This document shows, piece after piece, positions 11,684 through 51,981 of a stretch of DNA of 64,000 nt. The position numbers and the translations under genes were made by a program. The notes under the pieces are model-generated. The model saw nothing but the letters and a program-made list of their open reading frames with translations. It had not been told where the DNA came from and searched no databases. Origin of the DNA: Gekko japonicus (lineage: Eukaryota); the NCBI RefSeq assembly GCF_001447785.1, contig NW_015170393.1, positions 1 to 64,000 of the forward strand, read 5' to 3'. The first letter of the stretch is position 1; the number at the start of each line of letters is the position of its first letter.

Positions 11684-12628
11684 TTAGGAAAACTCAAGAG
11701 ATTTCTTTTGTATGAATTTCTGCAATGCTTCTTTGACTTCATTGTTCCGGATGGTGTATATGAAAGGGTTGAGCACTGGGGTGACCACCGTGTTGAGCAT
11801 GGAGACAGCTTTGTTGAGGCTGAAAGACGAGTGCATGGCACTAGGTCTTAAGTAGATGAAAAGCACTGCCCCGTACAAGATGCTGACCACAGTCAGATGA
11901 GAGGCACAGGTGGAGAAGGCCCTCCGCCGGCCACTGCTAGAAGGGATGCGGAGAATGGTGGAGATGATGAAGATGTAAGACACCACGGTCAAAAGCAGAG
12001 AGGTCAATATCACCGCCACGGCAATGAAGAAGCCAATGGCTTCGATCAGATGTGTGTCGCCCCCTGCAATCTTCAACATCGGTCCTATGTCACAGTAGAA
12101 ATGGTTGACAACGTTGGAGCCACAGTAGGGGAGCCTCACCACTAATATCGTCTGCAAAAGGATGGTGAAAAAGCCCCCAAACCAGGTGGCCAGGGCAAGC
12201 TGAAGGCAGACGCTGGAGGTCATGATGCTGGAATATCTCAGTGGCTGACAGATTGCGACATACCTGTCGAAGGACATGACAGTCAGGATGTAAAACTCTG
12301 TGATGCCAAAGAGGAAGTGGAAGTAGGACTGTGCCATGCAGCAGTAGAAGCAGATGGTAGTCTTCTCTGAGACAAGGTTGGCCAGCATCTTGGGGACAAC
12401 AGCAGTGGTATACCACATCTCAAGGAAAGAGAGGTTGCTAAGGAAGAAATACATTGGCTTCTGGAGTCGGTGATCAACTCTCACCAGGACAATGATGAGA
12501 CCATTCCCTGCAATTGACAGCACATAGAGTAGGAGGACAATGGCAAATAAAAGTATATTTATTCCCCACACATGAGGGAATCCCAGAAGTATGAATTCTT
12601 TTGCCCTTGAACAATTAGTCAAATCCAT
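11684..12628 (-). CDS. Olfactory receptor, family 6, OR6X1-like (paralogue 1), intact 314 aa
   Basis: Single-exon 7TM ORF with OR motifs GN (TM1), LQKPMYFFLSNLS, MSFDRYVAICQPLRY, HFYCD, AFSTCASHL, PVLNPFIYTIRN and an N-glycosylation sequon NCS. ICFYCC, FHFLFG and YGAVLFIYLRPS..HSSF match OR6X1 as I recall it. Confidence 0.96.
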   Translation of the reverse strand: MDLTNCSRAKEFILLGFPHVWGINILLFAIVLLLYVLSIAGNGLIIVLVRVDHRLQKPMYFFLSNLSFLEMWYTTAVVPKMLANLVSEKTTICFYCCMAQSYFHFLFGITEFYILTVMSFDRYVAICQPLRYSSIMTSSVCLQLALATWFGGFFTILLQTILVVRLPYCGSNVVNHFYCDIGPMLKIAGGDTHLIEAIGFFIAVAVILTSLLLTVVSYIFIISTILRIPSSSGRRRAFSTCASHLTVVSILYGAVLFIYLRPSAMHSSFSLNKAVSMLNTVVTPVLNPFIYTIRNNEVKEALQKFIQKKSLEFS

Positions 12629-14724
12629 AACTTAGAAACTGCCAGATTTGGGGTGGGTGGGTCAGAGGTTCACTTGCACAGATACTTATCTTATATGACA
12701 CTGTTGATGGATGATGCATTTATTCAGTTCTGTATTCTTCCCTATAAAAAGGTGTGTGGTGGGGGACTTCTTATAACATTTGTATCTCCACTCTGCAGAG
12801 AGGAAAACCAGTGGGGGGACGATTTCTGGAATTCAGACGGTTCCATAGACAAAATGTGAACGGTGTCATTTTCCAAGACATTGGCTGTGATTCTACACAC
12901 TCGTACATGGGAGTAAGTCCTGTTGAAGGCAGCATTAATTATTTCTTAGTAGACTTGCTCAGAATCACTCTGTTTTTGCATTTACAGATGATGGTGGGAT
13001 CATAAACATTATATCAGCCTCTATGTAGCTGAGTTTAATCAATCCAATTCATTTATTACCATCCAAGTTCAGTCAACTCATAGCTGAATATAAATGCATG
13101 CTTTCATTGGCTGCACAGGACAAAAGAATATAGGACAATGGATGAAAACACAGATGTAAGCAATGAGAAAATCAGAGAAAGCAGGAGAGAGATGACTGGT
13201 GACAAGATGAAGAAGGAAAAGGGGGGATGTATAGAAACTGAGAAGTATGTTATTTGCACCCTTAAAAATTCATACATACAACAGACAATATAAACCCTAA
13301 CAAATGAGTAAATGAATAGAGTGGGATGGCAGGACAAAAGAAACTGCCAAGTAAAATAAAAATAATAATAAGCTTTAAAAACAATGGACAGTACAATGTA
13401 TGTTATAATCTTCATCTACTTTCATATTTAGACAGGCGGGGAGACAGATATTTCTAAAAACAACACCACAGAGGTGCTGCTTTCACTTCTAGGCACCTGT
13501 TCCGAGGGGGGGGGGGTTGATGTGAAACAGGACAACAGGATTGATATTCCTTCCTATGAAATGTTCATTTCTGAAGAGAGAGAAAAAGATTTTATGCTTC
13601 AAGTGCCAAAATGGTATGAGCTTTCAAAGACCCCTCATGTTCTAATTGATAGAACACCTAGAAATATCTAATTGATATTTTCTTCCTCAGTCCTGGAACC
13701 ATCATTCTGGTTGGGAAACTTCCCATTTCTCCATGAAAATCCAACAGCTTTCTCTCTCCTTTCTCATCAATATCTCACCAGTCCCACTTCTTATAAATAG
13801 ATCTTCTTCTTCCTTTAACTACCCAAATAAATTATAAATTATAATAACGTTCATTCATCCAGCCAAACGTAGCTTAGAAATTTGCACTCCTCTTTCCTGC
13901 AAAGAAGGTCTTCCAGAATCAAGTGGAGATGTGCAACATATTAGAGAATGGGTTTATCTGCCTTGATTATTCTTTTGCCTGCACTATTTAAAGTCACTGT
14001 TCCAAATTATGAAGCATAAATTGAGAAGGCATCAAGATAACTTCGACAGAACTAGAGAGATCTTCTCCCCAAGGATTTCCCATTTGCAACATCCCCAAGC
14101 TATGTCAAGAAACAGGCTATTTTTAATCAGGCTAATTCAAAAGTTTGCATTTTCATTGGGGGGGTGTTCATGGGATTTGATGGAGATTGTGACAGAGGGA
14201 GGGGCTGTGGCTCAGTGGTAGAGCATGCAGAAAATCCCAGGTTCAATCCCTGGCATCTCCAGTTAATAGATCTGACAGTAGGTTATGTGAAAGAAGAAGA
14301 GATTGGATTTATGCCCTGCCCTTCACTACCCAAAGGTGTCTCAGAGCGGCTTACAAACTCCTTTCCCTTCCCCTCCCCACAACAGACACCCTGTGAGGTA
14401 GGTGGGGCTGAGAGAGCTCTGACAGAAACAGCTCTTTTTCAAGAACAGCTCTTATCAGAACTACGGCTTGCCCAAGGTCATCCAGCCAGGTGCAAGTAGA
14501 AGAGTGGGGAATCAAACCCGGTTCTCCCAGATTACAGTCCGCGCACTTAACCATGACACCAAACAGGCTCTACTGGAGTTCCAGGAAAGCCACTGCCAGT
14601 CTGAGTAGACAATACTGACCTTGATGGGCCAAGGGTCTGATTCAGTATAAGGCAGTTTCATGCAAGGTTCTTTTGCTGCTGTGATCAAAACCCGGGCTGC
14701 CTGCAGCTCCTTCCTGCTGGACTG

Positions 14725-15990
14725 CATTTTGTCCTTACCATACAGACCAGAAGGTGGCAGGCTTCCAGCTATGTAGTCAGAGGCTGTTTTGGTTTGCTTA
14801 ACTCAGCCCTGCAAGGGCTCCCTGCAAAAAAGTAAAAAATAAAAATGGCAAAGGGTATTTTCTTCCCATGTAAACCAGGCTCATCCACACTAGGACAATA
14901 GTCCAATGGGAATTGGTCGAAGTTCCTATTGCGCACTCACAGTCCTTAAGAATCCATTGCCCAAGCATGCCAATCTTCCTCCTCTATATCTATGAGTAAC
15001 ATTTTTCTGGCATCAAAAGTAGCAGAACTGCTCCACCCACCAATAACCCAGGAATTTTTATCAGTCAAGGGTGGTATTTCCAAATTGTTCCCTCTCCCAT
15101 GGTTCCTTGCAAGGAATGTAGAATGTAAATTACAGATGGGTTTCTCTACCAAGTGATTTATTTTTCCTGTGCCTTCCTTGTTATTCCCTGGGTCATGCAT
15201 TCCTTTCTGTGAACGAGATCGCAAGCTTATCGGCAAGATTAGCAGGTGGTGGATGGGAGCGCTTAGCTTTGACTATAATGAGCTTGACCGTGTGAAGCAT
15301 CCTTGTTTACCTTCACACGGAGCCGTTTCTTCTCAGGCTTTTGGGCGCGCAGCTGAGTCTCTACCCGCCTGGCGGAAACCATGTACATTGGTTAAGGCCC
15401 GATTCGAATGCCTTGCTTGCCCTGACCCAGGTATTCTAACAGTGCGTTTGTTCCTGTTCTAACACATGGCTTTGAATAAATACTACTTTCTTTGAAACGT
15501 GTACGGACTTCATTGCTTTGGGAAGGGAGACTGGACACCTGCTTGACTTCATTTTGTCCTTACCATACAGACCAGAAGGTGGCAGGCTTCCATCTATGTA
15601 GTCAGAGGCTGTTTTGGTTTGCTTAACTCAGCCCTGCAACGGCTCCCTGCAAAAAAGTAAAAAATAAAAATGGCAAAGGGTATTTTCTTCCCATGTAAAC
15701 CAGGCTCATCCACACTAGGACAATAGTCCAATGGGAATTGGTCGAAGTTCCTATTGCGCACTCACAGTCCTTAAGAATCCATTGCCCAAGCATGCCAATC
15801 TTCCTCCTCTATATCTATGAGTAACATTTTTCTGGCATCAAAAGTAGCAGAACTGCTCCACCCACCAATAACCCAGGAATTTTTATCAGTCAAGGGTGGT
15901 ATTTCCAAATTGTTCCCTCTCCCATGGTTCCTTGCAAGGAATGTAGAATGTAAATTACAGATGGGTTTCTCTACCAAGTGATTTATTTTC
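14725..15990 (+). repeat. ~440-bp direct duplication (14725-15166 and 15550-15990) flanking an LTR-like segment
   Basis: Near-identical copies, with 2 substitutions and a 1-nt T-run difference seen. Confidence 0.92.
15167..15551 (+). mobile_element. LTR-like segment (probable solo or partial LTR)
   Basis: CpG-rich, TATAA at about 15274, AATAAA at 15475, ends ...GACTTCA. No short TSD found. Confidence 0.55.
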
Positions 15991-16061
15991 ATGTACACGT
16001 TATTCTCGAAGGAAGTCACTGACTGACGACACGCCCAAAAGGCAATGGTCACCACTTGTTA

Positions 16062-16255
16062 TGGTGGGAAGGGGTGTCGAATTGCAGTTGACTTATGACA
16101 ATCCTGTAGGGTTTTCAAGACAAGAGATGAACAGAGGTGGGTTGCCATAACCCTGGAATTCCTTGGTGGTCTCCCATCCAAGTAGAACCAGGGCCCACCG
16201 TCCTTAGGTTCTGAAATTTGGTGCCATTGGGTTAGCCTGGGCCATCTGGGTCACC
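16062..16255 (-). mobile_element. 5S rRNA-derived SINE (SINE3-type) with RTE-like tail. Copies at 24711-24948, 28475-28672, 31615-31855, 34497-34710, 39345-40155, 40548-41172, 49660-49810, 50855-50995
   Basis: The minus strand matches the 5S internal control region (GGAAGCTAAGCAGGGTCGG..CTGGTTAGTACTTGGATGGGAGACC), followed by a non-5S body. Confidence 0.8.
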
Positions 16256-17169
16256 ACTTGCTATCTCTCCCTATTGCCTCAGACCCCAAGGCACCCTCTT
16301 TTCCCTCACTATGGACCTCTACTGGGTCTCTCAGTACTGCTATCAGAGAGTTGTTCAGAATGACTATTTTCACTCTTTAGAAGCCCTACATATCCCTGGA
16401 CTCAGAGGGCTGCCTAATGGACATCGCTGCATTTGTGATGTTTTCCTCACATTTATTATTTATTTATTTATTTCATCACATTTCTATACCGCTCCTTCCC
16501 GGAGGCTCGGAGCGGTGTACACATATACATTAATCATCTAACTAGGGCCACATATATTTTCAGGGGAGATGGGTGCCTTACCAGGCACCTAAGCAGCGTA
16601 GGTTTTTTTGTCTGTGACGGGTCTCGCTGAAACCAGATGGCAGTGTTGTTCGGCGTAGGTCTTTTTCTTTGGCTCGGCTCCCCTGGGGCGGTCCTCTCTG
16701 GTGCGCGGCTGCCCAATGAGTTCCACTGGTCTCTGTTCCGCAAGGCTCCGACCGCACTTACGTCACCACGCCTCTGTGTTGCCTGGGCCACGCTTCCATG
16801 AGTCGCCTGCCGTCTGCCGCCGAACCGCCTGATCCGTCGCCATGTTCTTACTGCCAGCTCGCCGCTTGTTGTTCGCTGCATCGCCCAGCCGCCACTGCTG
16901 CCCTCCAATATTGGAGGTAGGGTGCCCCCCACTCCTAAGGAGTGGGTACCCATTTGTCTACTTGCCATTAGGGCTTTCGAGCTGCTGGGTGGGTGGGAGC
17001 TAAGACATGGGCCGGGAGCTCACATTGGGTGGCCCTGCCCACTTCACCTCCTGCCTCAGGGGAATGGGGCTTAGGGTTGTAAGGTCTTACTAGTGTCCCA
17101 GTGGGGGCTCCAGCTTCGCTGCTGGGGTCTTCTGGTCAACATAGAATTTTTACCCAAATGCTAGAGTGT

Positions 17170-17492
17170 CCCCTGCATGACATTGGGTCTGTGTGTGACT
17201 GCAATAAAAAAGGCCAATGCTAAGCTATGCTATGCTGGGGATTATTAGGAAGGGTATTGAAAACAGTTCAGCCAATATCATAATGCCCCTATATAAATCG
17301 ATGGTGCGACCTCGTTTGGAATACTGTGTGCAGTTCTGGTCACCACACCTTAATAAGGATATTATAGCTTTGGAAAAAGTGCAGAAAAGGGCAACTCGAA
17401 TGATAAAAGGGTTGAAACACTTTCCCTATGAGGAAAGGTTAAAGCACTTAGGGCTCTTTAGCTTGGAGAAACAATGACTGAGGGGTGACATG
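17170..17492 (+). mobile_element. CR1 LINE ORF2 fragment ending at an assembly gap
   Basis: PLYKSMVRPRLEYCVQFWSPHL..DI..LEKVQKRATRMIKGL...YEERLKHLGLFSLEK is typical of the CR1 RT C-terminus. Confidence 0.92.
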
Positions 17493-19614
17493 NNNNNNNN
17501 NNNNNNNNNNNNNNNNNNNNNNNNNNNNNNNNNNNNNNNNNNNNNNNNNNNNNNNNNNNNNNNNNNNNNNNNNNNNNNNNNNNNNNNNNNNNNNNNNNNN
17601 NNNNNNNNNNNNNNNNNNNNNNNNNNNNNNNNNNNNNNNNNNNNNNNNNNNNNNNNNNNNAGTCAATCCCTTAGTTTCTGTGCAGAGGAGATAGATAACG
17701 TCTTGTTTGCTGCGTACCAGTTAGAAGAAGGGGTTTTGATCATGCAGAGAGAAGAAAGCAAGTGAGGGTAAGGCATTCCTCTAAAATATGGCGTGTCCTC
17801 TTACTGTGATCTTGCCTCTTTGCACGACTCCTTTGCACGACTTCGCAGCCTGAGTCTCTAGACCAAATTTTGATAAAAGGACAATCGGTAGCAAAGTTGG
17901 ATCAAGACGAATATGATAATCCAAATGGGCACTTGGAGAGATATTGGGGAGTCCTTGAAAGAAGTAGCTGAAAGTTTATTGTACAGGAAAAAATGTTACT
18001 GAACTGTGACTTGAATATATTAAAATAATTTCAGAGGGAAGCCTTGTTGGTCCGTAACACAGCAGCAAGATTCAAGTCCAGTATAACCTTAGAGACCAAC
18101 AAAATTTTCAGGGTATCAGCTTTTGAGAGTCAAAGCTCCAAGGAGATTTGACACGCAAAAGCGTATCGTTCAAAAATCTTGTTGATCTCTAAGGTCCTAC
18201 TGGAATCGAATCTACCGGATAAATTTTTTTTTTTAAATATCAGTTCAGAATTGCACTCAATTTAAATTTTCATTCCAGGCTGCTTTGGAAGGTACTCTCA
18301 GACACAACATGTGGATTTATTTTTGAACTTCCATAATCTCCTGTTGGTAAATGAATCTAAAGTCACTTTCAGCCATGGTTATTTCCTTAGACATAATGTC
18401 AATCATCTTGTCTTGATGTACGCTGCTTCCCCAGTTCAGATGCCTAGAACTGAAATTCCCATATCAAAGTGGGTGGACACTTCTTTTAATGTTCCAGTTT
18501 TCTTCCTTTTACCTTATCCATTAGTACTGACTGAGAAGGAAGAAAAGATGATGCCAAAAAACCTGAACTTTCCCCAACTTATCTATCTACTTACCTATCC
18601 TCATACAGCTTTCCTGCCTGTTGCTTTCTATTTTGATACACCATATTTAACATATTAATTAATTTGATTCATTTATACCACACCTCTTCCCTCAATACTG
18701 ACCCAAGGTGGCTCGTATCATTCTAGTCTCCTCTATTTTTCTTCACAATAACCCTTTGAGTTAGGTTAGACTGAGAGAATGTGACTGTCCCAGGGTCACC
18801 CAGAGAGCTAACATGGTCTGAGTGAGGATTCGAACCTGCCTGTCCCAGATGTCTCTTATCCACCACACCACACTGGTTCTCAATCCCTTCTGTCAAAACA
18901 GTTTCCCTTGTCCATCCAAATTCTGTCCTTCCAGTAGACCATTCCTGTCCTTCTCTTTCCATCCACTCATCTGTGTCTCTGTTCACCTCCAGGAAATGTG
19001 TCAGCCAAGGTACAGCTATCTTATTCATCCACATTAACTCTTCATTCTTCTTTAAGGTTAATTCATTTCTCTCTCCCTTTCATTCATTCCATTCCTCTCT
19101 CAGATCACACAGTGCTTTTCTCTCTCTCTGTCTGTCTTAATTGTCTACATGCATGCTTGTAGTTCTAGAATGAAGCTGGACAACCACATGTGGAATTGCA
19201 TCAGTCTCCAATTGATGTGGAGTGGCATCAGTCTCCAAGCACAGATTGGTGTGCATTGGTGTATGTGCGCATAGACAGTTCCTGAAATTACATAGACCTT
19301 AATTTTTTTGTTCAGTGATTACAATCACAGTTCCAAGTTCCAGCCTTGGAATTCTTGAGTGAGTGGTCTTCAGAAATTAATTTCCCCTCCCTCACAGGGG
19401 AGACAAATTGTATGCTACATGTTGTAAAATCACTTCCAACTCACACAGACCCTATGCATTAATGACCTCCAAAATGTCCTATCATTAGCGACCTTGCTCA
19501 ACTCTCTCAAGCTGAAGGAGGCAAATTGCATAAGGATGGTTTCCTTTCTGCTCTGTAATTTTAGGCTACAGTAGAATATACACCTAGATTAATAGTTTAT
19601 CCATATCTTTTTTT

Positions 19615-21310
19615 ACAATAACTTTTTATTGATTTTCTACAAGACTATAACAATGTAAAAAAATTAACATGTGAGAGCATATAGACAGATTTAAGTACAA
19701 TGTCAGCTTAACAATGTTAATTGGAATTTCCAAAATAAAAATATAATTATCTTGTGCATTTGCATATTAGTAAAACAATCTTTAATCAATTCGTTCAAAC
19801 CCCTCACCATAAAGTGATTGTAATCTGTTTGAGATGTAACAATAAATGTTTATAACTATTACAATTGTTATCCTGTCTCTTACCACAATTGCAGAGCATC
19901 AATCTCTTTGGGAGTGTCCTCAAATTGTTTTAGATATTCTAAGATAGGTAACCAAGTGGTGATAAAGGAGGAAGGAGCCTGAAATCTATCAAATCTTGCA
20001 AGGTTATCCGAGAGTTTCGCCATAATATATAACCCCCACAACTTTCTATGCCACTGTGAAAGTGTGGATGTCATTGTCATTTTCCAGTGGAAGGCAATGA
20101 CCGATTTTGCTGCAAAAAGCAATATGGAGACCCGTTCCACCACTGAAGGAGCAGAGCCATGAACTACCCAACTGTTCAAAAACAAATGTTCTGGGATAGG
20201 CAAAATATCTATGATATGGAAAGATTTTATCTGTTTCAGAATCAACTCCCAGAAAGGTAATATTTTGGGGCATGTTACCCTTTTGTCATGTGAGCCAGTT
20301 TATTGGGGGTGAGGTACCAATGAGCTAGTATCTTAAACGCTTGGAGCTTCATCGTGGTGACCTCCGTTTTAAACGGTGGGGAGGACCAAATTTTATGCCA
20401 AACTTCTTCTGATAGCTCTGTATTACATTCTTTGTGCCATAGAGATTGATAGGAGAGTTGAACTATGTTATCTAATGAGTTCAATATCGTGTATATTTTA
20501 GAAACCAACCCTTTCACCGTTACCTTCGCTATTCTAATTACAGCCTCAAGTACTGTGGGAGATTGTTTCATTACTTGATCTAATTTGAGGTGAGTATATA
20601 AGTTGGATATTTGGAAGTACTGGAACCACCAATGAGCTAGTATCTTAAACACTTGGAGCTTCATCGTGGTGACCTCCGTTTTAAACGGTGGGGAGGACCA
20701 AATTTTATTCCAAACTTCTTCTGATAGCTCTGTATTACATTCTTTGTGCCATAGAGATTGATAGGAGAGTTGAACTATGTTATCTAATGAGTTCAATATC
20801 GTGTATATTTTAGAAACCAACCCTTTCACCGTTACCTTCGCTATTCTAATTACAGCCTCAAGTACTGTGGGAGATTGTTTCATTACTTGATCTAATTTGA
20901 GGTGAGTATATAAGTTGGATATTTGGAAGTACTGGAACCATGGTATGACATGTTTTATTTTAGCTTCCAGGTAGTTTTTTGACAGAAGGTTGTGTTTATG
21001 TGTAAGGTCCTGTAAAGTAGTGATATTAGCCTCCTTCCATTTAATAAAATCTGGATTACTGAGTCCTGGAAGGAACCACGTTTGATTCAGGAAAGATTGA
21101 TGTCTTGATATTGGAGGTAAAGGTTTTGACCTCAGTCGGTCCCAAGTATTTAGAATTGTTAAAACTACCGGGTTTGTTTTAATCATCTTTGGCCTATAAG
21201 ATGGCTTTTGCCATATACATTTTTGTATTTCGAAGGGAGTTGCATAGTTGTTTGCTAACTGTTTCTGGTCTGAGTTAGGGTCGGCATTCAGCAATTTGAT
21301 CGTGTGAGTT
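19615..21310 (-). mobile_element. 5'-truncated L1 with an internal 312-bp tandem duplication
   Basis: L1 ORF2-like translation (HWYLTPNKLAHM...), 3'UTR with AATAAA/polyA, TSD CCATATCTTTTTTT at 19601-19614 and 21311-21324. Confidence 0.85.
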
Positions 21311-21352
21311 CCATATCTTTTTTTTTTCTTACAGCGCTATAGAAATAGAGTT

Positions 21353-22291
21353 ATGGATTCAGTCAATTGTTCAAGGGTGGAAAATTTCATACTTCTTGGT
21401 TTCCCGCATGTTTGGGGAATCAATGTCAGTTTCTTTGTGGTCGTCCTCATGCTATACATGTTGTCCATCACAGGGAATGGTCTCATTGTACTCATTGTGA
21501 GAATCAACAACCACCTCCAGAAACCAATGTATTTCTTCCTTAGCAACCTCTCTTTCCTTGAGATGTGGTACACCACCACTGTTGTCCCCAAAATGTTGGC
21601 CAATCTCCTCTTCTCAAAGACTACCATCTGCTTCTACTGCTGCATGGCACAGCTTTACTTCCACTTCTTCTTTGGCGTGACAGAGTTTTTCATCCTGACT
21701 GTCATGTCTTTTGATAGGTACTTGGCAATCTGCAATCCACTGAGATATACCACCATCATGACCTCTGGTGTTTGCCTACAGCTTTCCCTGGCTGCCTGGT
21801 CTGGGGGCTTTTTCTCCATCCTTTTTCAAATAATAATGGTTCTAAAGCTCCCCTTCTGCAGTTCCAATATTGTCAACCATTTTTACTGTGACATAGGACC
21901 ACTGTTGACTGTTTCAGGTGGGGACACACATTTGATCGAAGCCTTTAATTTTCTGATTGCTGTGGCTGTAATTGTGACATCTCTACTTCTGACAGTCATC
22001 TCTTACATCTTCATCATCTCCACCATTCTCCGCATCCCTTCAACTAGTGGGCAGAAGAAGGCCTTCTCCACCTGTGTCTCTCACCTGACTGTGGTTAGCA
22101 TCTTGTATGGGGCAGTCCTTTTTGTCTACTTAAGACCCAGTGCTTCAAAGTCAACTTTCAGCCACAACAAAGACATCTCTGTGCTCAACATTGTGGTCAC
22201 CCCAGTGCTCAACCCTTTCATATACACCATCAGGAACAATGAAGTCAAAGCAGCTTTGTGGAAACTCTTCCAAAGGAAGGCCTTGGCTTAG
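21353..22291 (+). CDS. Olfactory receptor, family 6, OR6X1-like (paralogue 2), intact 312 aa
   Basis: Same OR motifs and closely similar to 11684-12628. Pyrimidine tract plus CTTACAG acceptor (AG at 21333-21334) just upstream of the ATG. Confidence 0.96.
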   Translation: MDSVNCSRVENFILLGFPHVWGINVSFFVVVLMLYMLSITGNGLIVLIVRINNHLQKPMYFFLSNLSFLEMWYTTTVVPKMLANLLFSKTTICFYCCMAQLYFHFFFGVTEFFILTVMSFDRYLAICNPLRYTTIMTSGVCLQLSLAAWSGGFFSILFQIIMVLKLPFCSSNIVNHFYCDIGPLLTVSGGDTHLIEAFNFLIAVAVIVTSLLLTVISYIFIISTILRIPSTSGQKKAFSTCVSHLTVVSILYGAVLFVYLRPSASKSTFSHNKDISVLNIVVTPVLNPFIYTIRNNEVKAALWKLFQRKALA

Positions 22292-33569: not shown

Positions 33570-34250
33570 ACCTGGAGGTTGGCAACCCAAGTTTGTATTA
33601 CAGAAGGTGGCCTTTCAGAATGCCCTGTCCCTTTGGTAGAGACCAGGCCAGAAGAAGAATGCCCTGTCCCTTTAGTAGAGACCAGGCCAGAAGAAGAATG
33701 CCCTGTCCCTTTAGTAGAGACCAGGCCAGAAGAAGAATGCCCTGTCCCTTTGGTAGAGACCAGGCCAGAAGAAGAATGCCCTGTCCCTTTAGTAGAGACC
33801 AGGCCAGAAGAAGAATGCCCTGTCCCTTTAGTAGAGACCAGGCCAGAAGAAGAATGCCCTGTCCCTTTAGTAGAGACCAGGCCAGAAGAAGAATGCCCTG
33901 TCCCTTTAGTAGAGACCAGGCCAGAAGAAGAATGCCCTGTCCCTTTAGTAGAGACCAGGCCAGAAGAAGAATGCCCTGTCCCCTGGAGGTTGGCAACCCA
34001 AGTTTGTATTACAGAAGGTGGCCTTTCAGAATGCCCTGTCCCTTTGGTAGAGACCAGGCCAGAAGAAGAATGCCCTGTCCCTTTGGTAGAGACCAGGCCA
34101 GAAGAAGAATGCCCTGTCCCTTTAGTAGAGACCAGGCCAGAAGAAGAATGCCCTGTCCCTTTAGTAGAGACCAGGCCAGAAGAAGAATGCCCTGTCCCTT
34201 TAGTAGAGACCAGGCCAGAAGAAGAATGCCCTGTCCCTTTAGTAGAGACT
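33570..34250 (+). repeat. 39-bp minisatellite in two blocks (about 9 and about 5.7 units), with a duplicated ~48-bp leader
   Basis: Unit GAATGCCCTGTCCCTTT(A/G)GTAGAGACCAGGCCAGAAGAA. Leader CCTGGAGGTTGGCAACCCAAGTTTGTATTACAGAAGGTGGCCTTTCA at about 33571 and 33982. Confidence 0.95.
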
Positions 34251-35325: not shown

Positions 35326-35326
<1 letters not shown>

Positions 35327-35327
35327 T

Positions 35328-36200
35328 GCGGGGGCAGTCTCGCCCCAGTGTCTGCCTGTGTGTTTGTCCTGGGGGCACCGCACTTTGGAGCAACTGGCAC
35401 CAGAACCATGCTTTGGACCAGCACACAGAATGTGTCCCCTCAAAGGGGAGGGTCCGCTGAAGACCTGGGTGTATGAAGTGTGGGGGTCCAAACCTTATTT
35501 TGGGTGCAGGGGCACTTCCTTTTTCAAATCTCCTTTGGAATACAGGCCTCAGGGAAGCCCTGCGAATAGAAGCTCATGGCATCAAAACCGGTGTTTGGAC
35601 CGGGCATCACTGTATGTCACCTCGCAGGGCACAGTCTCAAGAGGATGGCAATGTGTCATTTGGGGTGTTCCAAATATTGGGGGGGGCAGTCTGGCCCCAG
35701 TGTCTGCCTGTGTGTTTGTCCTGGGGGCACCGCACTTTGGAGCAACTGGCACTGGAACCGCGCTTTGGACCAGCACACAGAATGTGTCCCCTCGAAGGGA
35801 AGGGTTAGCTGAAGATGGGGGTATATGAAGTGTGGGGGTCCAAACCTTATCTTGGGTGCAGGGGGCACTTCCTTATTCAAATCTCCTTTGAAATACAGGC
35901 CTCGGGGAAGTCCTGCAAACAGAAGCTCGTGGCATCAGAACCGGTATTTGGAACGGGCATCACTTTATGTCACCTTGCAGGGCACAGTCTACAGAGAGTG
36001 AGGATGTGTCATTTGGGGTGGTCCAAATATTTTTTGGGGCCCTTTGGCCGCAGTGTCTTCCTGTGTGTTTGTCCTGGGGGCACCACACTTTGGAGCAACT
36101 GGCACCGGAACTGCGCTTTGGACCAGCACACAGAATGTGTCCCCTCGAAGGGGAGGGTCTGCTGAAGGTGGGCGTGTATGAAGTGTGGGGGTCCAAACCT
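35328..36200 (+). repeat. ~352-bp tandem (satellite-like) repeat, about 2.5 units
   Basis: CC(C/G)CAGTGTCT.CCTGTGTGTTTGTCCTGGGGGCACC recurs at 35343, 35695 and 36048. Confidence 0.92.
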
Positions 36201-42080: not shown

Positions 42081-42215
42081 CACAACTCAAAAACTATGTT
42101 TTGGACCCCCCCAAAAAAAAAAACCTTCTGAAAAGGAGATTTAGTACATCAGCCAAAACAAACAGTCAAAGTCTCATGAACGCAAAAGGTGGCGCTATCC
42201 ATTCATCTTTATTAT

Positions 42216-42286
42216 TTCCCACAAGCTGTACAGAAACAGAACAAAGAATGTTAACTCATGTTCTGTTTCTGTACAGCTTGTGGGAA
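42216..42286. other. Perfect 28-bp stem, 15-nt loop hairpin
   Basis: TTCCCACAAGCTGTACAGAAACAGAACA-loop-TGTTCTGTTTCTGTACAGCTTGTGGGAA. Confidence 0.9.
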
Positions 42287-43657
42287 TAGACATTTGCCTC
42301 CATGTTCTGGTTGGGGCTTCCTGACTGGTCACAGTGGGGAACCAGATACTGAGTTTGCTGGATCTTTTCATCTGGCAAGGCTCTTACTTCAGCTTCCAAC
42401 TGTATGAGAAGAAAGTTCACATAATAGGGGGAGTGGTTTCCAGGGGTGTAGCCAGGAATTTCTGGGTGGTGGGGCAGGGGAGCAGTGATGGTGGCAGGCT
42501 GCCTTGACTACTCACCTCCACCCAGGGTTATGGCCATGGGGGAGTGTGTGCGGCTGTTCAGTGGGAAGGTGCCTCTCCTCCTTCCCTGCCTCTGGCCTGC
42601 TGGCTGCCCTTTGGATGTGCACCTCCAGCCATGTGCCTCTCCTCCCCCCTTCCTCTCCCCCCTTCTCCAGATGTGCACCTCTCTTCCCTGCCTCCAGCCC
42701 ACCAGCTGCCCTTTAGACAGCATGTCCGGCCCCGTGGGGGGCCATTCCCACTGTGGCATGGAAGATGGGCAGGTGGACAGCAAGGGATGGGTGAGGTGAA
42801 TTGTGGGGTCTGTAAGGCACTGGAACAGTTGGCGATGGTGGGGCATGGCTAACAAGTGAGGGGGCACGGCCCCAAATTTCCCGGCCATAGCTATGTGCCT
42901 GGTGGTTTCATTTTTTTCCATTTGCAAGCAGACTCATAGAAGACAGTTCCATCAATGGCTACTATCCATGACACAGGGGATTCCAACATTCAGAGGCAGG
43001 AAGCCTTTGAATGCCAGACCTAGGAAACCTTGGTCCCTATTGACTTATTCCCTTCTTTTATGTGCCACCTTTCCCCGAAAGGGGAAACCAGAGCAGCTTA
43101 CAACTTTCACGTTTCCTCCATTTTATCCTTACACCAACCCTGTGAGGCAGGTTAGGCAGTGAGTGTGTGACTTATCCAGGGTCACCCAGCAAGCTACCAT
43201 GGCACAGTGGGCATTTGAACCTGAGTCTCCCACGTCCCAGTCCAATACTTTAACCACACTGTATCGTAACACTTGTGCCCTGTTTATGAGACCTTCGGGG
43301 TAATTGGATGGTTGCTGTGCAAAACAGGATGCTGGATTACATGGACCAGTAGGTCTGACCTCAAAGGGCACTTCTTATATTCTTAGATTTTTTTTTTTAA
43401 AGGAAGAAGTTGTGAACATCTCATGCAGGTTCTCATGGTGTACTCCAGGCCCAGGATGATCATTTCAACTTCTGTTTGTGCTGACTAGGCCTCAGTTATC
43501 AGAACCAGTGAAATGGTCAAAGATTCTGTTGTTCCTGAGGAATGGATCTCATGTATTTAAGCATGTCCCCAATTTTCTGGTGTTTCTTGCTGTGAATTCC
43601 TAATGTCTGGGGGATGCCTTTAAAACATTTTATTGGGGTGACGTATTATCTCCCCTA

Positions 43658-44007
43658 GGAGCTGCGGTGGCTCAAGTGGTTAAGATGCTGAACTGCAGGC
43701 TGTGGAAGGTCGGTAGTTCAGCAGTTCGAGACCCGAGTGTGCCGCATGACGGAGTGAGCTCCCGTCTCTAGTTCCAGCTCCTCCCAACCTAGCAGTTCAA
43801 AAGCAAGAAATTGCAAGTAGATAAATAGGGACCACTTCGGTGGGAAGGGAACAGCGTTCCGTGCGCCTTGGTGTTTAGTCATGCCGGCCGCATGACCACG
43901 GAAACGTCTTTGGACAGCGCTGGCTCTTCGGCTTTGAAACGGAGATGAGCACCGCAACCCTAGAGTCGGACTCGACTGGCTTTCGAGCAAGGGAGACCTT
44001 TACCTTT
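43658..44007 (+). mobile_element. Sauria SINE, full length
   Basis: Matches the other copies. TSD TATTATCTCCCCT. Confidence 0.93.
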
Positions 44008-44114
44008 TATTATCTCCCCTGTCCCTTCCCACAACAACAACTGCCCATCCAGATAGCAGACATTACTGAACTTGTTTGAATGGAGGTCTAGCTTCAGAGG
44101 TTGGGCACCTTCAG

Positions 44115-44373
44115 GAAATTGCGAAGGACTCCGCAACTTGGAGTGACCATCACTGCTCTCGATCCCAATGTGAAGAGGCAAAAGAAAGGGCCAGGATGTG
44201 ATTTCGCTAACCAAGCATCCTGTATTTTAATTCTTCCATCCCTGAAATTGCGAAGGACTCAGCACCTTGGAGTGACCATCACTGCTCCCCATCCCAATGT
44301 GAAGAGGCAAAAGAAAAGGGCCAGGATGTGATTTTCGCTAACCAAGCATCCTGTATTTTAATTCCTCCATCCC
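44115..44373 (+). repeat. ~129-bp tandem duplication
   Basis: GAAATTGCGAAGGACTC...CCATCCC occurs twice, with a few substitutions and indels. Confidence 0.9.
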
Positions 44374-45360
44374 CTCTATCAGCAGGGGCACCTGGGAGGA
44401 GGAACAAGAACAGCTGTAGTTGNNNNNNNNNNNNNNNNNNNNNNNNNNNNNNNNNNNNNNNNNNNNNNNNNNNNNNNNNNNNNNNNNNNNNNNNNNNNNN
44501 NNNNNNNNNNNNNNNNNNNNNNNNNNNNNNNNNNNNNNNNNNNNNNNNNNNNNNNNNNNNNNNNNNNNNNNNNNNNNNNNNNGCCTCTGACAGTAGCGGC
44601 AGGGGGGGTTCTTACTTGGGGGGGGGCTAGAAAGGATTTTGTAGAGAGCACCACAACTGTCAAGGCCCCTTAAGGGCTGGAAAACACCTCATCTGTGGAA
44701 GAGAAAGAGGGTCAACAGTGGGAGGGCTTCTAATGTCCTGGCCCCACTGGTGGACCTCCTGATGGCACTGGTATTTGTGGCCACTGTGTGACACAGAATG
44801 TTGGACTGGATGGGCCTTTGGCCTGATCCAACATTGGCGTCTCTTATGTTCTTATCTTCTTATGTTCTTATGATCTGGGAACTGGTTCCACTATTGCTTG
44901 TCAGAGTTATCTCCCATGACCCTGAGGCCCTAGAATGAAAGACCTCAGAGGACCTTAGCAATCTCAAACATATAGGGCCAGTCTATAAAACAGAAGTCCC
45001 TTTGTCTCTGATCCAAGCCTACAAGATCATTACAGATGAGAGGTCCATGGAGATATAGCCCTGCTGCAGTAAAATGACATCAGTGAAGTAACATCAGTCC
45101 TCTCTAGGAATCACAGGGGAAACCTGGAAGTGATGCCAGTCTTCTCTAGGAATTTCTAGTTTTACAAAAGAGTTTCCAGCAATTCCTAGAGTAGCATGAC
45201 ATCACTCCGTTTCCCATGCCAACATCCACCCACCCATAGCCAAGTTCCCCTGGTCTACCACTGGTAGCCAAGCCACGCCTGGTAACGCTATCTGCAACTC
45301 TTTCTACTCCAAACTCCACATATGTTCAGATGCATCACCGGCATGGAACTTGTAAATATA

Positions 45361-47830
45361 TACCCTAACATATATCCAGGGCATTCCATTTTCTTGTCGT
45401 GTATTTTGTATTTGTGTGTGTGTGCCCACGCATGCATTCCTGGAAGTCATGACGACCTCTGGCGTTCCCTAGTGGTGGGGCAGGGAGGACTTTCAGAGAA
45501 GTGAATTGATATAACCTGCCTCTGCCTCCTGGCCCTGGTATTCTTTGGATGTCCCCCATCCAAGTTACTCTGTGATCCACCCTGAGCCCACTTACGGGGA
45601 GGGTGGAATATAAATTTAAATAAATAAATAAATAAAAATACTAATGAGATCAGGCTTGCCTGGGCTATCCAGGTAAGCACCAGGACATTCAATTTCCCAA
45701 GCTCTACACTAGATATACAGATCAGAACCTGAATGTGTTTGGGTCTGTTCCATGCACAACAACATACTTGAATGGCTGTAGGAATAAGCTTTGCAGACAG
45801 TAAACAAGACCCCAATCACTGACAGTAAACAAGACCCCAATACCTGACAGTAAACAGAGCCCACTTACGGGGAGGGTGGAATATAAATTGAAATAAATAA
45901 ATAAATAAAAATACTGATGAGATCAGGCTTGCCTGGGCTATCCAGGTAAGCGCCAGGACATTCAATTTCCCAGGCTCTACACTAGATATACANNNNNNNN
46001 NNNNNNNNNNNNNNNNNNNNNNNNNNNNNNNNTAGCTCACAAAGTAGAACTTTTGCTCACAAGACTCCACAGCTTAGAGGGAGCATCGACCATCACCCCC
46101 CTTCACATCTTTATCTGTAGTTGAATGAGTAGGGGAAAGGAGAGTAAGAAAAGGACTTAAGATTTGTAGGATTGGTAGTGATGGGATTTTAATGTTCAGT
46201 GTTTTATTATTATGTATTTGTTCCTCANNNNNNNNNNNNNNNNNNNNNNNNNNNNNNNNNNNNNNNNNNNNNNNNNNNNNNNNNNNNNNNNNNNNNNNNN
46301 NNNNNNNNNNNNNNNNNNNNNNNNNNNNNNNNNNNNNNNNNNNNNNNNNNNNNNNNNNNNNNNNNNNNNNNNNNNNNNNNNNNNNNNNNNNNNNNNNNNN
46401 NNNNNNNNNNNNNNNNNNNNNNNNNNNNNNNNNNNNNNNNNNNNNNNNNNNNNNNNNNNNNNNNNNNNNNNNNNNNNNNNNNNNNNNNNNNNNNNNNNNN
46501 NNNNNNNNNNNNNNNNNNNNNNNNNNNNNNNNNNNNNNNNNNNNNNNNNNNNNNNNNNNNNNNNNNNNNNNNNNNNNNNNNNNNNNNNNNNNNNNNNNNN
46601 NNNNNNNNNNNNNNNNNNNNNNNNNNNNNNNNNNNNNNNNNNNNNNNNNNNNNNNNNNNNNNNNNNNNNNNNNNNNNNNNNNNNNNNNNNNNNNNNNNNN
46701 NNNNNNNNNNNNNNNNNNNNNNNNNNNNNNNNNNNNNNNNNNNNNNNNNNNNNNNNNNNNNNNNNNNNNNNNNNNNNNNNNNNNNNNNNNNNNNNNNNNN
46801 NNNNNNNNNNNNNNNNNNNNNNNNNNNNNNNNNNNNNNNNNNNNNNNNNNNNNNNNNNNNNNNNNNNNNNNNNNNNNNNNNNNNNNNNNNNNNNNNNNNN
46901 NNNNNNNNNNNNNNNNNNNNNNNNNNNNNNNNNNNNNNNNNNNNNNNNNNNNNNNNNNNNNNNNNNAAAGTATTTGAGCTTCAGTTTCATTATCTGGCCT
47001 TCCAGGGAACAGTCAGGGTTGATTTCTTTTAGGATTGAATGTGTACCCTAACATATATCCAGAGCATTCCATTTTCTTGTCTTTTATTTTGTATTTGTAC
47101 CCACGCATGCATTCCTGGAAGTCATGATGACCTCTGGTGATCCCTCGTGGGGCATGGGGGACTTTCAGAAAAGTGGATTGATATAACCGGCCTCTGCCTC
47201 CTGGCCCTGGTATTCTNNNNNNNNNNNNNNNNNNNNNNNNNNNNNNNNNNNNNNNNNNNNNNNNNNNNNNNNNNNNNNNNNAAATAAATAAATAAATAAA
47301 AATACTGATGAGATCAGGCTTGCCTGGGCTATCCAGGTAAGCGCCAGGACATTCAATTTCCCAGGCTCTACACTAGATATACAGATCAGAACCTGAATGT
47401 GTTTGGGTCTGTTCCATGCACAACAACGTACTTGAATGGGTGTAGGAATAAGCGGTGCAGACAGTAAACAAGACCCCAATCATCGGTGTTCCCTCTAAGC
47501 TGAATTAGCGTGAGCTAGCTCACAGTTTTTTCGCCTCCGGCTCACACATTTTTTGTCTTAGCTCAGGAAGGATGCCTCCAGAGCAAACTCATTTATGCAG
47601 TAGCCAAACCGCTCGCTCACAACTTTAATGCCGGTAGCTCACAAAGTAGAACTTTTGCTCACAGGACTCCACAGCTTAGAGGGAGCGTTGACCATCACCC
47701 CCCTTCACATGTTTATCTGTAGTTGAATGAGTAGGGGAAAGGAGAGTAAGAAAAGGACTTCAGGTTTGTAGGATTGGTAGTGATGGGATTTTAATGTTCA
47801 GTGTTTTATTATTATGTATTTGTTCCTCAA
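45361..47830 (+). repeat. Local segmental duplication spanning gaps (45361-45817 ~ 47044-47480; 46033-46227 ~ 47634-47829; 45857-45992 ~ 45583-45718)
   Basis: Direct sequence matches with some divergence; may be partly an assembly artefact. Confidence 0.8.
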
Positions 47831-49985
47831 ACTTGGAATCCAACTGTGGCATCAGATTTAAAGGTGCCCTGAATAAATCTATCCCCATGGTTTGAATGTA
47901 ACTCATTCATAGGGAAAAAACCCCCCAAAGAATGATCTGTTCCCCAAGGGAAGTTGTAAGAACTGGATTATTAGGTGTGACCTATCCCATGGACATGACA
48001 CAACAAGTGGCTCTTTCAGATACAGTGGGGAAAGGACCTTGTCTTTAAACTGGAGGTTTCAATCTCAGTGTCAAGACACATGAAACCGAGAACCAGAATG
48101 AATGATGACTGAATCAGTTCCAGTAGTGTCAGGTGTGTGAATGCGGGTCCAGAAGACAGAAAAAAATAGCAGATGGAATCATGGGAACTTAGCACATGAA
48201 GAAACAAAACCCAAACTGATGGGTTAAACTAGGGCTTCATTAATGGCTGATCCAGTAATAAATTAATCCTTAACTCCTCTTTTCAGTGCAGTGAACCCTA
48301 GCTAATAGCATCCTTCCTGTCTGTACAGGGCTGATCATCCCAATCCTGACTCAGATTTCAGGACTGCTGTATTACTCGCCCCTTTCCCACATGATATGCA
48401 CAATAATATATGTGCCAAGTGTGGCTTTACCTTATCCTCCGCTTTGAACTTCCAATGATACTTCAAGCCCCAAGGGTTATCCTCACTGTTCCTGCTAGAT
48501 GGAGAAGTTGGCTTGGTTACCCTTGGTATGCTTGCCATTTGACCTTATGTTGTTGGCCAAAACCTGCACTGCTTCTTCCAGTAGTACTAGATGGGGACCT
48601 AACCAGGACCTAACATGGCCAGGCCTATTTGAAATACCCTTATCTCCAGCTATGAGAACTATGAGGAACAGGCAAAGGGAAGCCACTGCCTATGACAATC
48701 TGAGTTGACCACAATTCCTTCTTTGGTCCCGAAGTCACCTGTGAATCCCTCATTTCCAGCTTTGTGGAGATGGGGCTGAAACAATGGCAAGCATCTGTTT
48801 CAGAGGTTCCAAAGTTGCATGACAGGGAACTGCTCTCTATCATCTGGAGATCACTTGAAATTCCAGAAGATCTCCAGGCTTTACATGGAAGTTGGCAATT
48901 CTAGAAAGGGAAAACGATGTCCCTTGCATTGCTTTAAAAAAAGTAGTATCTTGGTCTCAAATACAGGGTTATGGATATAGGCAGTGTGGCTCAGAATATT
49001 ACGATCTTTGTTGCCTCAGGCCCAATCTCCCAATCTGCTCTAGGAAAAGGATCTCATCCCGAGTTCTTTAGTTTCAATCTCTACCCACTGCACCCTTAAC
49101 CACAAGGTTAGGCCCTGATGTAGCTAAACTCCCACTGTGCCTGTTTGAGAAGATGGAAGTTTGCCCTTACTCCTGGCCAGGAAAATCTTCTTCCTTGTCC
49201 CTAGGAGGAGGACCTAGGGTTACTAACCTCCAGGTAGGGCTTGAAGATCTCCCAGAATAACTGATCTCTGGATTACAGGGATCAGTTCCCATGGAGAAAA
49301 GGGGTGGGGGGCTGTAAGGACAGTATACCGCACTGAGGTGCCTCCTCTTCTCAAACCCTGCCCTTGCCAGACTCCAACCCCCAAACTCTAGGTATTTCCC
49401 AAAGGTGAATTGATGAACCTAGGAGGACCTGATATTCTTAGCTCATGAAGACTCCAAGCCTTGCTGACTAACCTTCTCCCAGGCTTTCTACCCTATTTCA
49501 TCTAATTAGCCCTCCTCTCTCCAGTTCTCTCTGCTTCCACCTTCTAACCTCCTCCTCCTTGCCCCAGCTACTTCCTGACTCTCTTACCTACTCCAGAGCA
49601 GGACTTTACTCCTAATTAGCTCTTGACTCCCAAGTGGGCAAGTATGTATAGGTATGCATGTGCCATTCAAGCCACAGCTGACTTATGATGACCTCAGCAA
49701 GAAGCAGTGGTGGTTTCTCATTGCCTTCCTCTGCAGTCTTCCTTGGTGGCCTCTTCCAGATATTGACCCAGCTTCCAAAATCTGATGAGATTGAGCTATA
49801 CAATACCATTCCACACCCCCAAGTAGGCTACTACCAGTTGTGAGTAGCTCTTCCTGTTCCTGACCTCTGGGGCCCTGACTCCACTCTCCTTCCTCTTTGC
49901 TTCTGAGCTGCCACTGAAGGGATTCCTTTCCCCCCCGTCCTACCCCCACACAGACAACTTTGGGGGTGTTCTATGGTATGACACC

Positions 49986-50294
49986 TGTAATGTACCGATC
50001 TCCGACCGTGTGTGACACAAAGGCTCCATGCGGTCAGGCTAAACCTCTGAGCTTCGCCCCGAGAAACAATGGACTAGAGGATCCTAGCCCATACCAATTG
50101 GAGGGCTAGGCTCCCAGCTGAGAGCCCATGAAACTCTCGGCCACTGTAAATAGCCAATGACTCGAGTGGGGTGTGTTTTGGGTGTGGAGTTTGCAGGGGA
50201 TATAAACCGGCCTGCGGGCCGGTTTAAGTCATCTTGTTCTTGAGAAAATAAAGGCTTAGAGCTGAAATCATGAAGTATGTCTAAGGACTTTTCA
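49986..50294 (+). mobile_element. Solo LTR (309 bp)
   Basis: TG...CA termini, perfect 5-bp TSD ACACC, and CCAAT (about 50154), GATATAAA (about 50199), AATAAA (about 50247) in order. Confidence 0.87.
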
Positions 50295-51036
50295 ACACCC
50301 ATGAGCAAAACCACCACTCTTCAATGTAGTCTGACTCCCCATTCTCACTCCTGTTCCGTTGAATGTATTTGAAACCAAATGATGGGTTTCAAATGAAATC
50401 GATTTTGGTTCATTTTTGCAACTGAGGGAACTATTTCCTATTTGCAAAATGGATGAAGTGAGGTCGTTTTTGCCACTGTCACCTACCCAGAGATTTATTT
50501 TTATTGGTGGAAACTGTTATCCCATACTTTAAAGAAAATATCCCGGTTCTTCAGTCCTACAGGAAAAAATAAGTTTATCTTTGAAGTTTGGCAATATTAA
50601 GAGAGTATTGATCAGTTAAACAAATATCCTAAAGCACATGAATTCAGGTGTCTACAAAAGCTCCCAGAACAAGAATCTTGATACAAGAGAAAACCAAAAT
50701 GAAATAGGAAATGTCCTGTACATAGAGAAAAGACAACCCTTCTCAATAGCAAAGCCTGAATTATATAACTGAAAACATCAAGGAGTTGTGTATTTGAACT
50801 TAGGAAAACTATGGATGCTTTGTAGGTTCAGATACTCATCTGTGTACACATATAAATGCTGTCAGATCAAGGCAAGTGATCAAACAGAGATGGTTTCCCA
50901 TTGCTCTCCTCTGCAGAGTTTTTCTTAGTAGTCTCCCATGCAAGTACTGGCCCTGCTTAGCTTCCGAGCTCTGATGAGATTGGACTATACCATAACAATC
51001 CTCATCCCAGAAACTCTAGATCAAGATAATATGTCT

Positions 51037-51981
51037 TTACAGTTCTCTCTGTCCTTTTCTTCTTAAGACTTTCTGTAATGCTTCTTTAACTTCCATGTTC
51101 CTGATGGTGTATATGAAAGGGTTCAGCATTGGAATGACCACAGTGTTCAGCAAAGAGACAGCTTTGTTGAGGCTGAAAGAGGAGTGTGCAATGCTAGGTC
51201 TTAAATAAATGAACAGGACAGCTCCATAGTATATGCTGACCACAGTCAGGTGAGAGGTACAGGTGGAGAAGGCCTTCTTCTGACCACTGGTGGAGGGGAT
51301 ACGGAGAATTGTGGAGATGATGAAGATATAAGAGATCACTGTCAGAAGCAGAGAGGTCAGTATCACAGCCACAGCCACCAGGAAATTCAAAACCTCAATC
51401 AGCTGTGTTTCTCCACCTGCAATTTTCAACAGTGGTCCTACATCACAGTAGAAATGGTTGATGGTGTCAGAGTCACAAAAGGGAAGTGTTGCCACCATTA
51501 TCACTTGGGAAATTATAGAGAAAAATCCTCCTGTCCAGGAGGCCACTGCAAGCTGAAGGCAGAGACTGGAATTCATGATGGTTGTATATCGCAGGGGCTG
51601 GCAGATGGCTAAGTACCTGTCGAAGGATATGACAGTCAGGATGAAAAATTCGGTCACACCGAAGAAGAAGAAATTGAACATTTGCACCATGCAGCAGTAG
51701 AAGCAGATGGTGGACTTATCCAAAAGAAGATTGACTAACATCTTGGGGACAATAGCCGTGGTGTGTCCCATCCCAAGGCAAGAGAGGTTGCTAAGGAAGA
51801 AATACATTGGCTTCTGGAGCTGGTGATCAGCTCTCACTATCACAATGATGAGACCATTTCCTGTAATCGTAAAAATGTAGAATACAAGGATAAACACAAA
51901 CAAAACAATATTAATTCCACCAATGTGTGGAAATCCAAGAAGAACGAACTCTTCCACCCTTGAACAGTTGCTCAGAGCCAT
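51037..51981 (-). CDS. Olfactory receptor, family 6, OR6X1-like (paralogue 3), open 314 aa with some motif decay
   Basis: OR motifs present (PMYFFLSNLS, SFDRYLAICQPLRY, KAFSTCTSHL, PMLNPFIYTIRN). TM2 reads LSCLGMGH against LSFLEMWY in the paralogues. Confidence 0.93.
   Translation of the reverse strand: MALSNCSRVEEFVLLGFPHIGGINIVLFVFILVFYIFTITGNGLIIVIVRADHQLQKPMYFFLSNLSCLGMGHTTAIVPKMLVNLLLDKSTICFYCCMVQMFNFFFFGVTEFFILTVISFDRYLAICQPLRYTTIMNSSLCLQLAVASWTGGFFSIISQVIMVATLPFCDSDTINHFYCDVGPLLKIAGGETQLIEVLNFLVAVAVILTSLLLTVISYIFIISTILRIPSTSGQKKAFSTCTSHLTVVSIYYGAVLFIYLRPSIAHSSFSLNKAVSLLNTVVIPMLNPFIYTIRNMEVKEALQKVLRRKGQREL

What the first reader, a model, noticed from the sequence alone, without database searches (positions are those of the whole stretch)
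11684..51981. OR6X1-like clade lacks the conserved third ECL2 cysteine and has an N-terminal Cys: possible rewired disulfides
Seen: where ORs normally read LLKLSCxDT, all three paralogues have Gly (LKIAGGDT, LTVSGGDT, LKIAGGET). They keep the first ECL2 Cys (LPYCG, LPFCS, LPFCD) and HFYCD, and all carry an N-terminal NCS plus ICFYCC before TM3. The neighbouring OR6E1-like gene keeps LLCGDT. Established: ORs typically have a TM3-ECL2 disulfide (~C97-C179) and an intra-ECL2 disulfide (~C169-C189). Inference: loss of one partner in three diverged, intact paralogues argues against random decay. The orphaned C169 may pair with the N-terminal Cys or an ICFYCC Cys, giving a different lid over the odorant pocket.
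Basis: partly seen in the sequence, partly recalled or inferred. Interest (0 to 1): 0.7.

Follow-up and report, generated by a model that had tools for sequence, protein, structure and literature searches.

The report
Lizard-snake smell receptors swap disulfide partner
A family of smell receptors shared by geckos, other lizards and snakes has lost one conserved cysteine and gained another at the protein's front end, which likely restores the missing bond in the way already shown for the human receptor OR51E2, so this is a new reptile example of a known trick.

Summary
Observation confirmed. The three intact OR6X1-like genes have Gly at the third ECL2 cysteine (189, BW45.60), plus Cys6 and Cys93/96/97. 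This is one ancestral event, not three: a squamate clade in which 91 of 91 proteins lack Cys189 and 90 carry Cys6, whereas 69 of 69 other OR6X1-type proteins keep Cys189 and 3 have Cys6. The ICFYCC cysteines are older and not coupled to the loss. A second, separate reptile clade (OR10-like, no ICxxCC) shows the same swap. The mechanism is published: Muto et al. 2026 (PMC13486327) show an N-terminal Cys pairing with Cys45.40 in OR51E2, and their engineered rescue OR51E1 E8C+C191Y has exactly this register. Best reading: Cys6-Cys169 likely replaces Cys169-Cys189 as a folding and trafficking staple. No S-S distance was measured and expression is untested. A changed odorant 'lid' is unsupported. 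New here: the two reptile clades (not found in 6 targeted paper searches), an alligator gene with both cysteines, and a possible Cys93-Cys96 bond. The scan's earlier notes hold no report on these genes. New member of a known kind.

The parts
11684..12628 (-). OR6X1-like gene 1, intact single ORF, 314 aa
   Evidence: Pfam 7tm_4 E 4e-54; 93% identical to a Heteronotia protein and 83% to a Python protein
12611..12613 (-). gene 1 Cys6 (TGT), middle of the N-C-S sequon; inferred partner of Cys169
   Evidence: Cys in 90 of 91 clade members
12338..12352 (-). gene 1 Cys93-x-x-Cys96-Cys97; Cys97 = BW3.25; Cys93/Cys96 a possible extra CxxC bond
   Evidence: DSSP strand 91-93, helix from 94
12122..12124 (-). 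gene 1 Cys169 (BW45.40), orphaned by loss of Cys189
   Evidence: 91 of 91 in clade
12092..12094 (-). gene 1 Cys179 (BW45.50), canonical partner of Cys97
   Evidence: aligns with HFFCD of consOR6
12062..12064 (-). gene 1 Gly189 (BW45.60), Cys in ordinary ORs
21353..22291 (+). OR6X1-like gene 2, intact, 312 aa; Cys6 21368-21370, Cys169 21857-21859, Gly189 21917-21919
51037..51981 (-). OR6X1-like gene 3, intact, 314 aa; Cys6 51964-51966, Cys169 51475-51477, Gly189 51415-51417
   Evidence: groups with proteins of four other geckos
58907..59896 (-). neighbouring OR (329 aa) outside the clade; three ECL2 cysteines, no N-terminal Cys (internal control)

Best explanation
The three genes belong to a squamate-wide OR6X1-like clade that lost Cys189 and carries Cys6, and Cys6 likely forms a disulfide with the orphaned Cys169 in place of the usual Cys169-Cys189 bond. 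Shown: the sequence pattern, its single origin, its coupling and purifying selection. Inferred: the bond itself; that it ties the glycosylated N-terminus onto ECL2; that its job is correct folding and surface delivery, as tested for OR51E2. Cys97-Cys179 would stay canonical. Cys93 and Cys96 are an older feature of the whole OR6X1 group and more likely pair with each other or stay free than bond Cys169.
For: (1) Clade: 91 of 91 lack Cys189 (Gly 89, Ser 2), 90 of 91 have Cys6, 91 of 91 keep Cys169; outside it 69 of 69 keep Cys189 and 3 of 69 have Cys6. One clade, support 100/100 on 16 of the 91 rows. (2) Cys6 outlasts its sequon: 7 of 91 lost Ser/Thr7 but all 7 keep Cys6. (3) Separate case: OR10-like clade of L092, 108 of 108 rows lack Cys45.60, 100 have an N-terminal Cys, none has Cys93 or Cys96. 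(4) Own genome 4 of 4 against 1 of 122; counted as 2 events, Fisher p = 3.9e-4, relatedness among the 122 ignored. (5) PMC13486327: C4-C168 bond in the OR51E2 structure 8F76, loss of surface expression in C4S and C168S, rescue by Y188C; OR51E1 C191Y rescued by E8C, which lies 6 residues before the conserved Phe in the middle of an N-x-S sequon, the register of Cys6; human OR4D10 has N-C-T at the same register and lacks Cys45.60. (6) The model (pLDDT 92.6, residues 1-10 at 69) aligns from residue 5 to OR51E2 residue 4 (Z 34.5, rmsd 2.4, 301 aligned). (7) dN/dS 0.245, 0.216, 0.200 (NG86).
Against: The 90 of 91 count is one evolutionary event, not 90. One clade member (P0007, Elgaria) lacks both Cys6 and Cys189 but keeps Cys93/96. 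In the second clade 3 rows with a full N-terminus lack the Cys (P0175, P0176, P0215) and one with it lost Cys169 (P0251). Cys6 also occurs with Cys189 intact in P0025, P0159 and P0095. Muto et al. report that AlphaFold gave models both with and without the bond and that biochemical mapping is still lacking.
Confidence: 0.85

Rival explanations
1. Cys169 pairs with Cys93 or Cys96 of ICFYCC; Cys6 is incidental or bonds the remaining one.
For: Cys93 and Cys96 are present in 89 and 90 of 91 clade members; P0007 keeps them while lacking Cys6 and Cys189. They sit at the extracellular end of TM3.
Against: Both are present in 65 of 69 relatives where Cys169 already has Cys189; P0040 lost both yet keeps Cys6/Gly189; the second clade makes the swap with neither, 0 of 108.
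Confidence: 0.07
2. No replacement bond: Cys169 and Cys6 are free, the second ECL2 disulfide was simply dispensable, and Cys6 hitch-hiked with the clade's founder.
For: One founding event could fix two unrelated changes; four other positions (8, 57, 187, 190) are also diagnostic for the clade. Cys189 is absent from about 5% of human and mouse ORs (PMC9442423). P0007 has neither cysteine.
Against: The sequon's middle residue is highly variable elsewhere (17 residue types, no Cys, in 119 ORs) yet Cys in 90 of 91 here; Cys169 kept in 91 of 91; the pairing recurs in a separate clade and in mammals.
Confidence: 0.07
3. The genes are decaying pseudogenes.
For: Gene 3 departs from its paralogues at some usually conserved sites. 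Expression is untested.
Against: Three full ORFs, dN/dS 0.20-0.25, 82-93% identity of gene 1 to the nine best lizard and python hits, 49 snake proteins in one subclade.
Confidence: 0.01

Closest known systems
Human OR51E2 (PDB 8F76; Muto et al. 2026, PMC13486327)
   Same: Cys45.60 absent, Cys45.40 kept, N-terminal Cys beside the glycosylation Asn; C4-C168 bond seen in the structure and needed for surface expression.
   Different: Distant receptor (29% identity); its Cys lies one residue earlier (before the Asn, not after); single gene rather than an expanded clade; no CxxCC before TM3 was reported for it. Independent origin is inferred.
Human OR4D10 and OR10A7; engineered OR51E1 E8C+C191Y (same paper)
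   Same: OR4D10 has N-C-T at the same register and no Cys45.60; bond predicted by AlphaFold2. The OR51E1 double mutant recreates this register and restored functional expression.
   Different: The three mouse Or4d10 rows keep Cys45.60 and lack the Cys, so that swap is lineage-limited; here it is fixed from geckos to snakes. The OR4D10 and OR10A7 bonds are predictions only.
Mammalian OR6X1 and consOR6 (PDB 9LDV)
   Same: Same receptor group; 58% identity to consOR6; mammalian OR6X1 proteins share C-x-x-C-C before TM3.
   Different: They keep Cys45.60 and, but for guinea pig P0095, lack the N-terminal Cys; consOR6 has ISFNGC without the extra cysteines.
Mouse Or8w1 / human OR5W2 (third disulfide, N-terminal Cys to Cys45.38)
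   Same: N-C-S at the same register; a parallel for alligator P0025/P0159, which have Cys6, an extra ECL2 Cys170 and Cys189.
   Different: They keep all three ECL2 cysteines and add a fourth; the squamate clade has only two.

Membership tests
Vertebrate olfactory receptors, OR6X1-like | 7tm_4 domain in one intact ORF with OR motifs | tested here: met
Vertebrate olfactory receptors, OR6X1-like | groups with proteins named OR6X1 / 6X1-like | tested here: met
   a paralogous sub-clade beside the mammalian OR6X1 branch, not its one-to-one orthologue
ORs with compensating N-terminal-Cys45.40 disulfide (Muto et al. 2026) | Cys45.60 absent, Cys45.40, Cys45.50 and Cys3.25 kept | tested here: met
   91 of 91
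ORs with compensating N-terminal-Cys45.40 disulfide (Muto et al. 2026) | N-terminal Cys within the window that permits the bond (OR51E2 positions 2-7) | tested here: met
   Cys6 = OR51E2 position 5 = OR51E1 E8 = OR4D10 C6 by spacing to the conserved Phe and by structural alignment
ORs with compensating N-terminal-Cys45.40 disulfide (Muto et al. 2026) | sulfur atoms within bonding distance in a model or structure | not testable with these tools
   Structure prediction returns no coordinates
ORs with compensating N-terminal-Cys45.40 disulfide (Muto et al. 2026) | loss of surface expression on mutating either Cys, rescue by restoring Cys45.60 | not testable with these tools
   bench test
CxxC disulfide at a helix start (thioredoxin-like geometry; recalled, from no call) | first Cys just before the helix, second in its first turn | tested here: met
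   DSSP strand 91-93, helix 94-127 in both models
CxxC disulfide at a helix start (thioredoxin-like geometry; recalled, from no call) | the two cysteines are gained and lost together | tested here: inconclusive
   of 160: both 154, neither 3, Cys96 only 3, Cys93 only 0

The most novel reading that the evidence does not exclude
Squamate OR6X1-like receptors carry a three-bond extracellular cage found in no solved OR: Cys6-Cys169, Cys97-Cys179 and a Cys93-x-x-Cys96 bond capping TM3 that is shared by the whole OR6X1 group, humans included. The swap came by a stepping stone still visible in alligators (N-terminal Cys gained first, Cys189 lost later), and both swapped clades are large in snakes because the N-terminal staple makes sturdier, more mutation-tolerant receptors.
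Probability: 0.15. Interest if true: 0.6.

Novelty: new member of a known kind. Interest (0 to 1): 0.36.

Why it matters
The published case rests on scattered mammalian receptors and AlphaFold models. Two old reptile clades with about 90 and 100 sampled proteins give evolutionary support for the rule 'lose Cys45.60, gain an N-terminal Cys', at two registers (6 and 4 residues before the conserved Phe) that both fall in the window found by mutagenesis. One is the natural copy of an engineered rescue mutant. If the bond aids surface expression, these would be good candidates for a first reptile OR structure and for ligand screens. The conserved Cys93-x-x-Cys96 of OR6X1 is a small, testable loose end that reaches a human receptor.

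Tried and rejected
Cys-Cys distances: two AlphaFold jobs return confidence and secondary structure only; the first left the N-terminus unresolved. Expression: no RNA holder listed (four rows share about 0.2 of the words, kind guessed); this is no evidence either way and expression stays untested. Order of events: the four alligator genes group together (97/88) beside the squamate clade (100/96), and the AU test does not reject joining only the Cys6-bearing pair to it (p 0.107), so shared versus separate gain of Cys6 is open; the test with tuatara P0042 did not finish. Rejected: Cys6 as a mere filler of the sequon; ICFYCC as compensator; pseudogene decay (YN00 failed for one of the three pairs). 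Rows dropped: 18 of 164 proteins over 380 aa (fused models, none with a Gly189 or CxxCC motif in the screen) and 2 identical to window genes; 11 of 118 over 400 aa. One of the 69 outside rows duplicates L004. One search mislocated the N-terminal column; one search corrected it. Paper searches for a reptile report or a CxxC report: searches found none by their listings; one search was uninformative; subscription journals are not covered. Earlier scan notes: none on these genes.

Full report
Observation. The window holds four intact olfactory receptor frames. Three, at 11684-12628 (-), 21353-22291 (+) and 51037-51981 (-), are 71-76% identical to the first and each has Cys6 (in N-C-S), Cys93, Cys96, Cys97, Cys169, Cys179 and Gly189. 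Alignment to consOR6, consOR5 and consOR2 puts Gly189 on the Cys of L-x-L-[AS]-C-x-D-T. The fourth OR (58907-59896) keeps that Cys. The nearest named proteins are gecko 'olfactory receptor 6X1-like'.

Background in this genome. Of the 126 best-scoring ORs (of 1158 candidates, so biased towards this family), 122 keep Cys189. The four without it are the three window genes and L092 (G000:C14073:96816-97727); all four have an N-terminal Cys, against 1 of the 122 (L044) (five rows lack a start Met or a full N-terminus). The middle residue of the sequon is never Cys in 119 other ORs.

One event, squamate-wide. A tree of 167 rows built without the N-terminus and without the cysteine columns under test places the window genes in one clade of 91 proteins from geckos, skinks, lacertids, an amphisbaenian, a tegu, an anguid, a cordylid and snakes; 49 are a snake subclade. 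A slower tree on 37 rows gives the clade 100/100. In it position 189 is Gly (89) or Ser (2), Cys6 is present in 90, and Cys97, 169 and 179 in 91. Among the other 69 OR6X1-type rows (mammals, alligators, tuatara, a turtle, a caecilian, other squamate paralogues) Cys189 is present in 69 and Cys6 in 3. Seven clade members lost Ser/Thr7 but kept Cys6; six of them have another sequon upstream. Pairwise dN/dS among the window genes is 0.245, 0.216 and 0.200.

Which cysteine is the partner. Cys93 and Cys96 are both present in 65 of the 69 rows that keep Cys189, so they predate the loss; P0040 lost both and keeps Cys6/Gly189. Following L092 gave a second clade, named OR10A4/10AG1/10P1/10A7-like, in lizards, snakes, turtles and alligators: 108 of 108 rows lack Cys45.60, 100 have a Cys four residues before the conserved Phe/Ile, and none has Cys93 or Cys96. 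Of the other 8, four have no full N-terminus, one is a misaligned mammalian model, three are full-length exceptions. There the N-terminal Cys is the evident candidate. Human OR10A7 also has Thr at 45.60, so this clade may not be independent of that published case; I did not test it. Against the reading: P0007 has neither Cys6 nor Cys189.

What is known. PMC13486327 (Muto et al., J Biol Chem 2026; I read parts 1-5 of 7: abstract, results, discussion, start of methods; searched its six supplementary files for OR6X1 and file 4 for six named rows; the figures and the rest of the supplements were not read) reports the C4-C168 bond in OR51E2 (8F76), loss of surface expression and response in C4S and C168S, rescue by Y188C without change in agonist selectivity, tolerance of the Cys at positions 2-7 but not 8, rescue of OR51E1 C191Y by N5C or E8C, and predicted bonds in OR4D10, OR10A7 and 8 mouse ORs. 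It does not mention reptiles, squamates, lizards or OR6X. By spacing to the conserved Phe, Cys6 equals OR51E1 E8, OR4D10 C6 and OR51E2 position 5; the second clade's Cys equals OR51E2 position 7 (my reading). PMC9442423 (passages only) gives 95.0% conservation for C189 in 1521 human and mouse ORs. PMC12294341 (passages only) added nothing. Other papers were seen only as search listings.

Structure. With a more diverse alignment of 149 rows the model reached 92.6 overall, 69 for residues 1-10 and 84 for 11-20, and aligned over residues 5-305 with OR51E2 residues 4-305 (Z 34.5, rmsd 2.4). This shows that the modelled N-terminus follows the same path; it gives no sulfur distance. Both models end a strand at 93 and start TM3 at 94, which puts Cys93 and Cys96 where a helix-capping CxxC bond would fit (geometry recalled from thioredoxin, no call). 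Co-occurrence is suggestive only: both 154, neither 3, Cys96 alone 3, Cys93 alone 0 of 160; in the own genome 15, 109, 2 and 0 of 126.

History. The closest outside relatives are alligator genes. P0025 and P0159 have N-C-T at the same register together with Cys169, an extra Cys170 and Cys189; their neighbours P0029, P0160 and P0161 have N-G-T and Cys189; tuatara P0042 has Cys189 and no Cys6. This fits gain of Cys6 before loss of Cys189, but also a separate alligator gain paired with Cys170, as in mouse Or8w1. The AU test does not decide (p 0.107).

Verdict. New are the two reptile clades, the exact match to an engineered rescue, and two open leads (Cys93-Cys96; the alligator state). No report of them turned up, within an open-access library. 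Interest 0.36.

Noticed in passing
L092 = G000:C14073:96816-97727: Second reptile OR clade (OR10-like) lacking Cys45.60 with an N-x-[ST]-C cysteine; 100 of 108 rows; turtles, alligators, lizards, many snake paralogues.
   Followed up: yes
window 12341-12352 (-) and equivalents: Cys93-x-x-Cys96 before Cys97 in 154 of 160 OR6X1-type proteins, mammals and a caecilian included; possible extra disulfide at the start of TM3.
   Followed up: partly
P0025, P0159 (alligators): Carry Cys6, Cys169, Cys170 and Cys189 together: either an intermediate state or a separate third bond.
   Followed up: partly
window 20275-21336 (-), repeat 20316-20940: 353-codon open frame just upstream of gene 2 with a 312-bp near-perfect tandem duplication; no Pfam match; looks like the end of a LINE ORF2 (recalled, not tested).
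   Followed up: partly
window 33617-34249: 39-bp minisatellite (9.4 and 5.7 copies, 99% match) that leaves long open frames on both strands.
   Followed up: no
window 35330-36200: 353-bp tandem repeat, 2.5 copies, beside an AGAT microsatellite.
   Followed up: no
L076 = G000:C10116:424300-425380: OR with a fourth ECL2-region cysteine (CLHFC) but no N-terminal Cys.
   Followed up: no
P0038 (Mauremys, fused model): One of its two OR halves has Phe at 45.60 with no N-terminal Cys seen in its first 16 residues.
   Followed up: no
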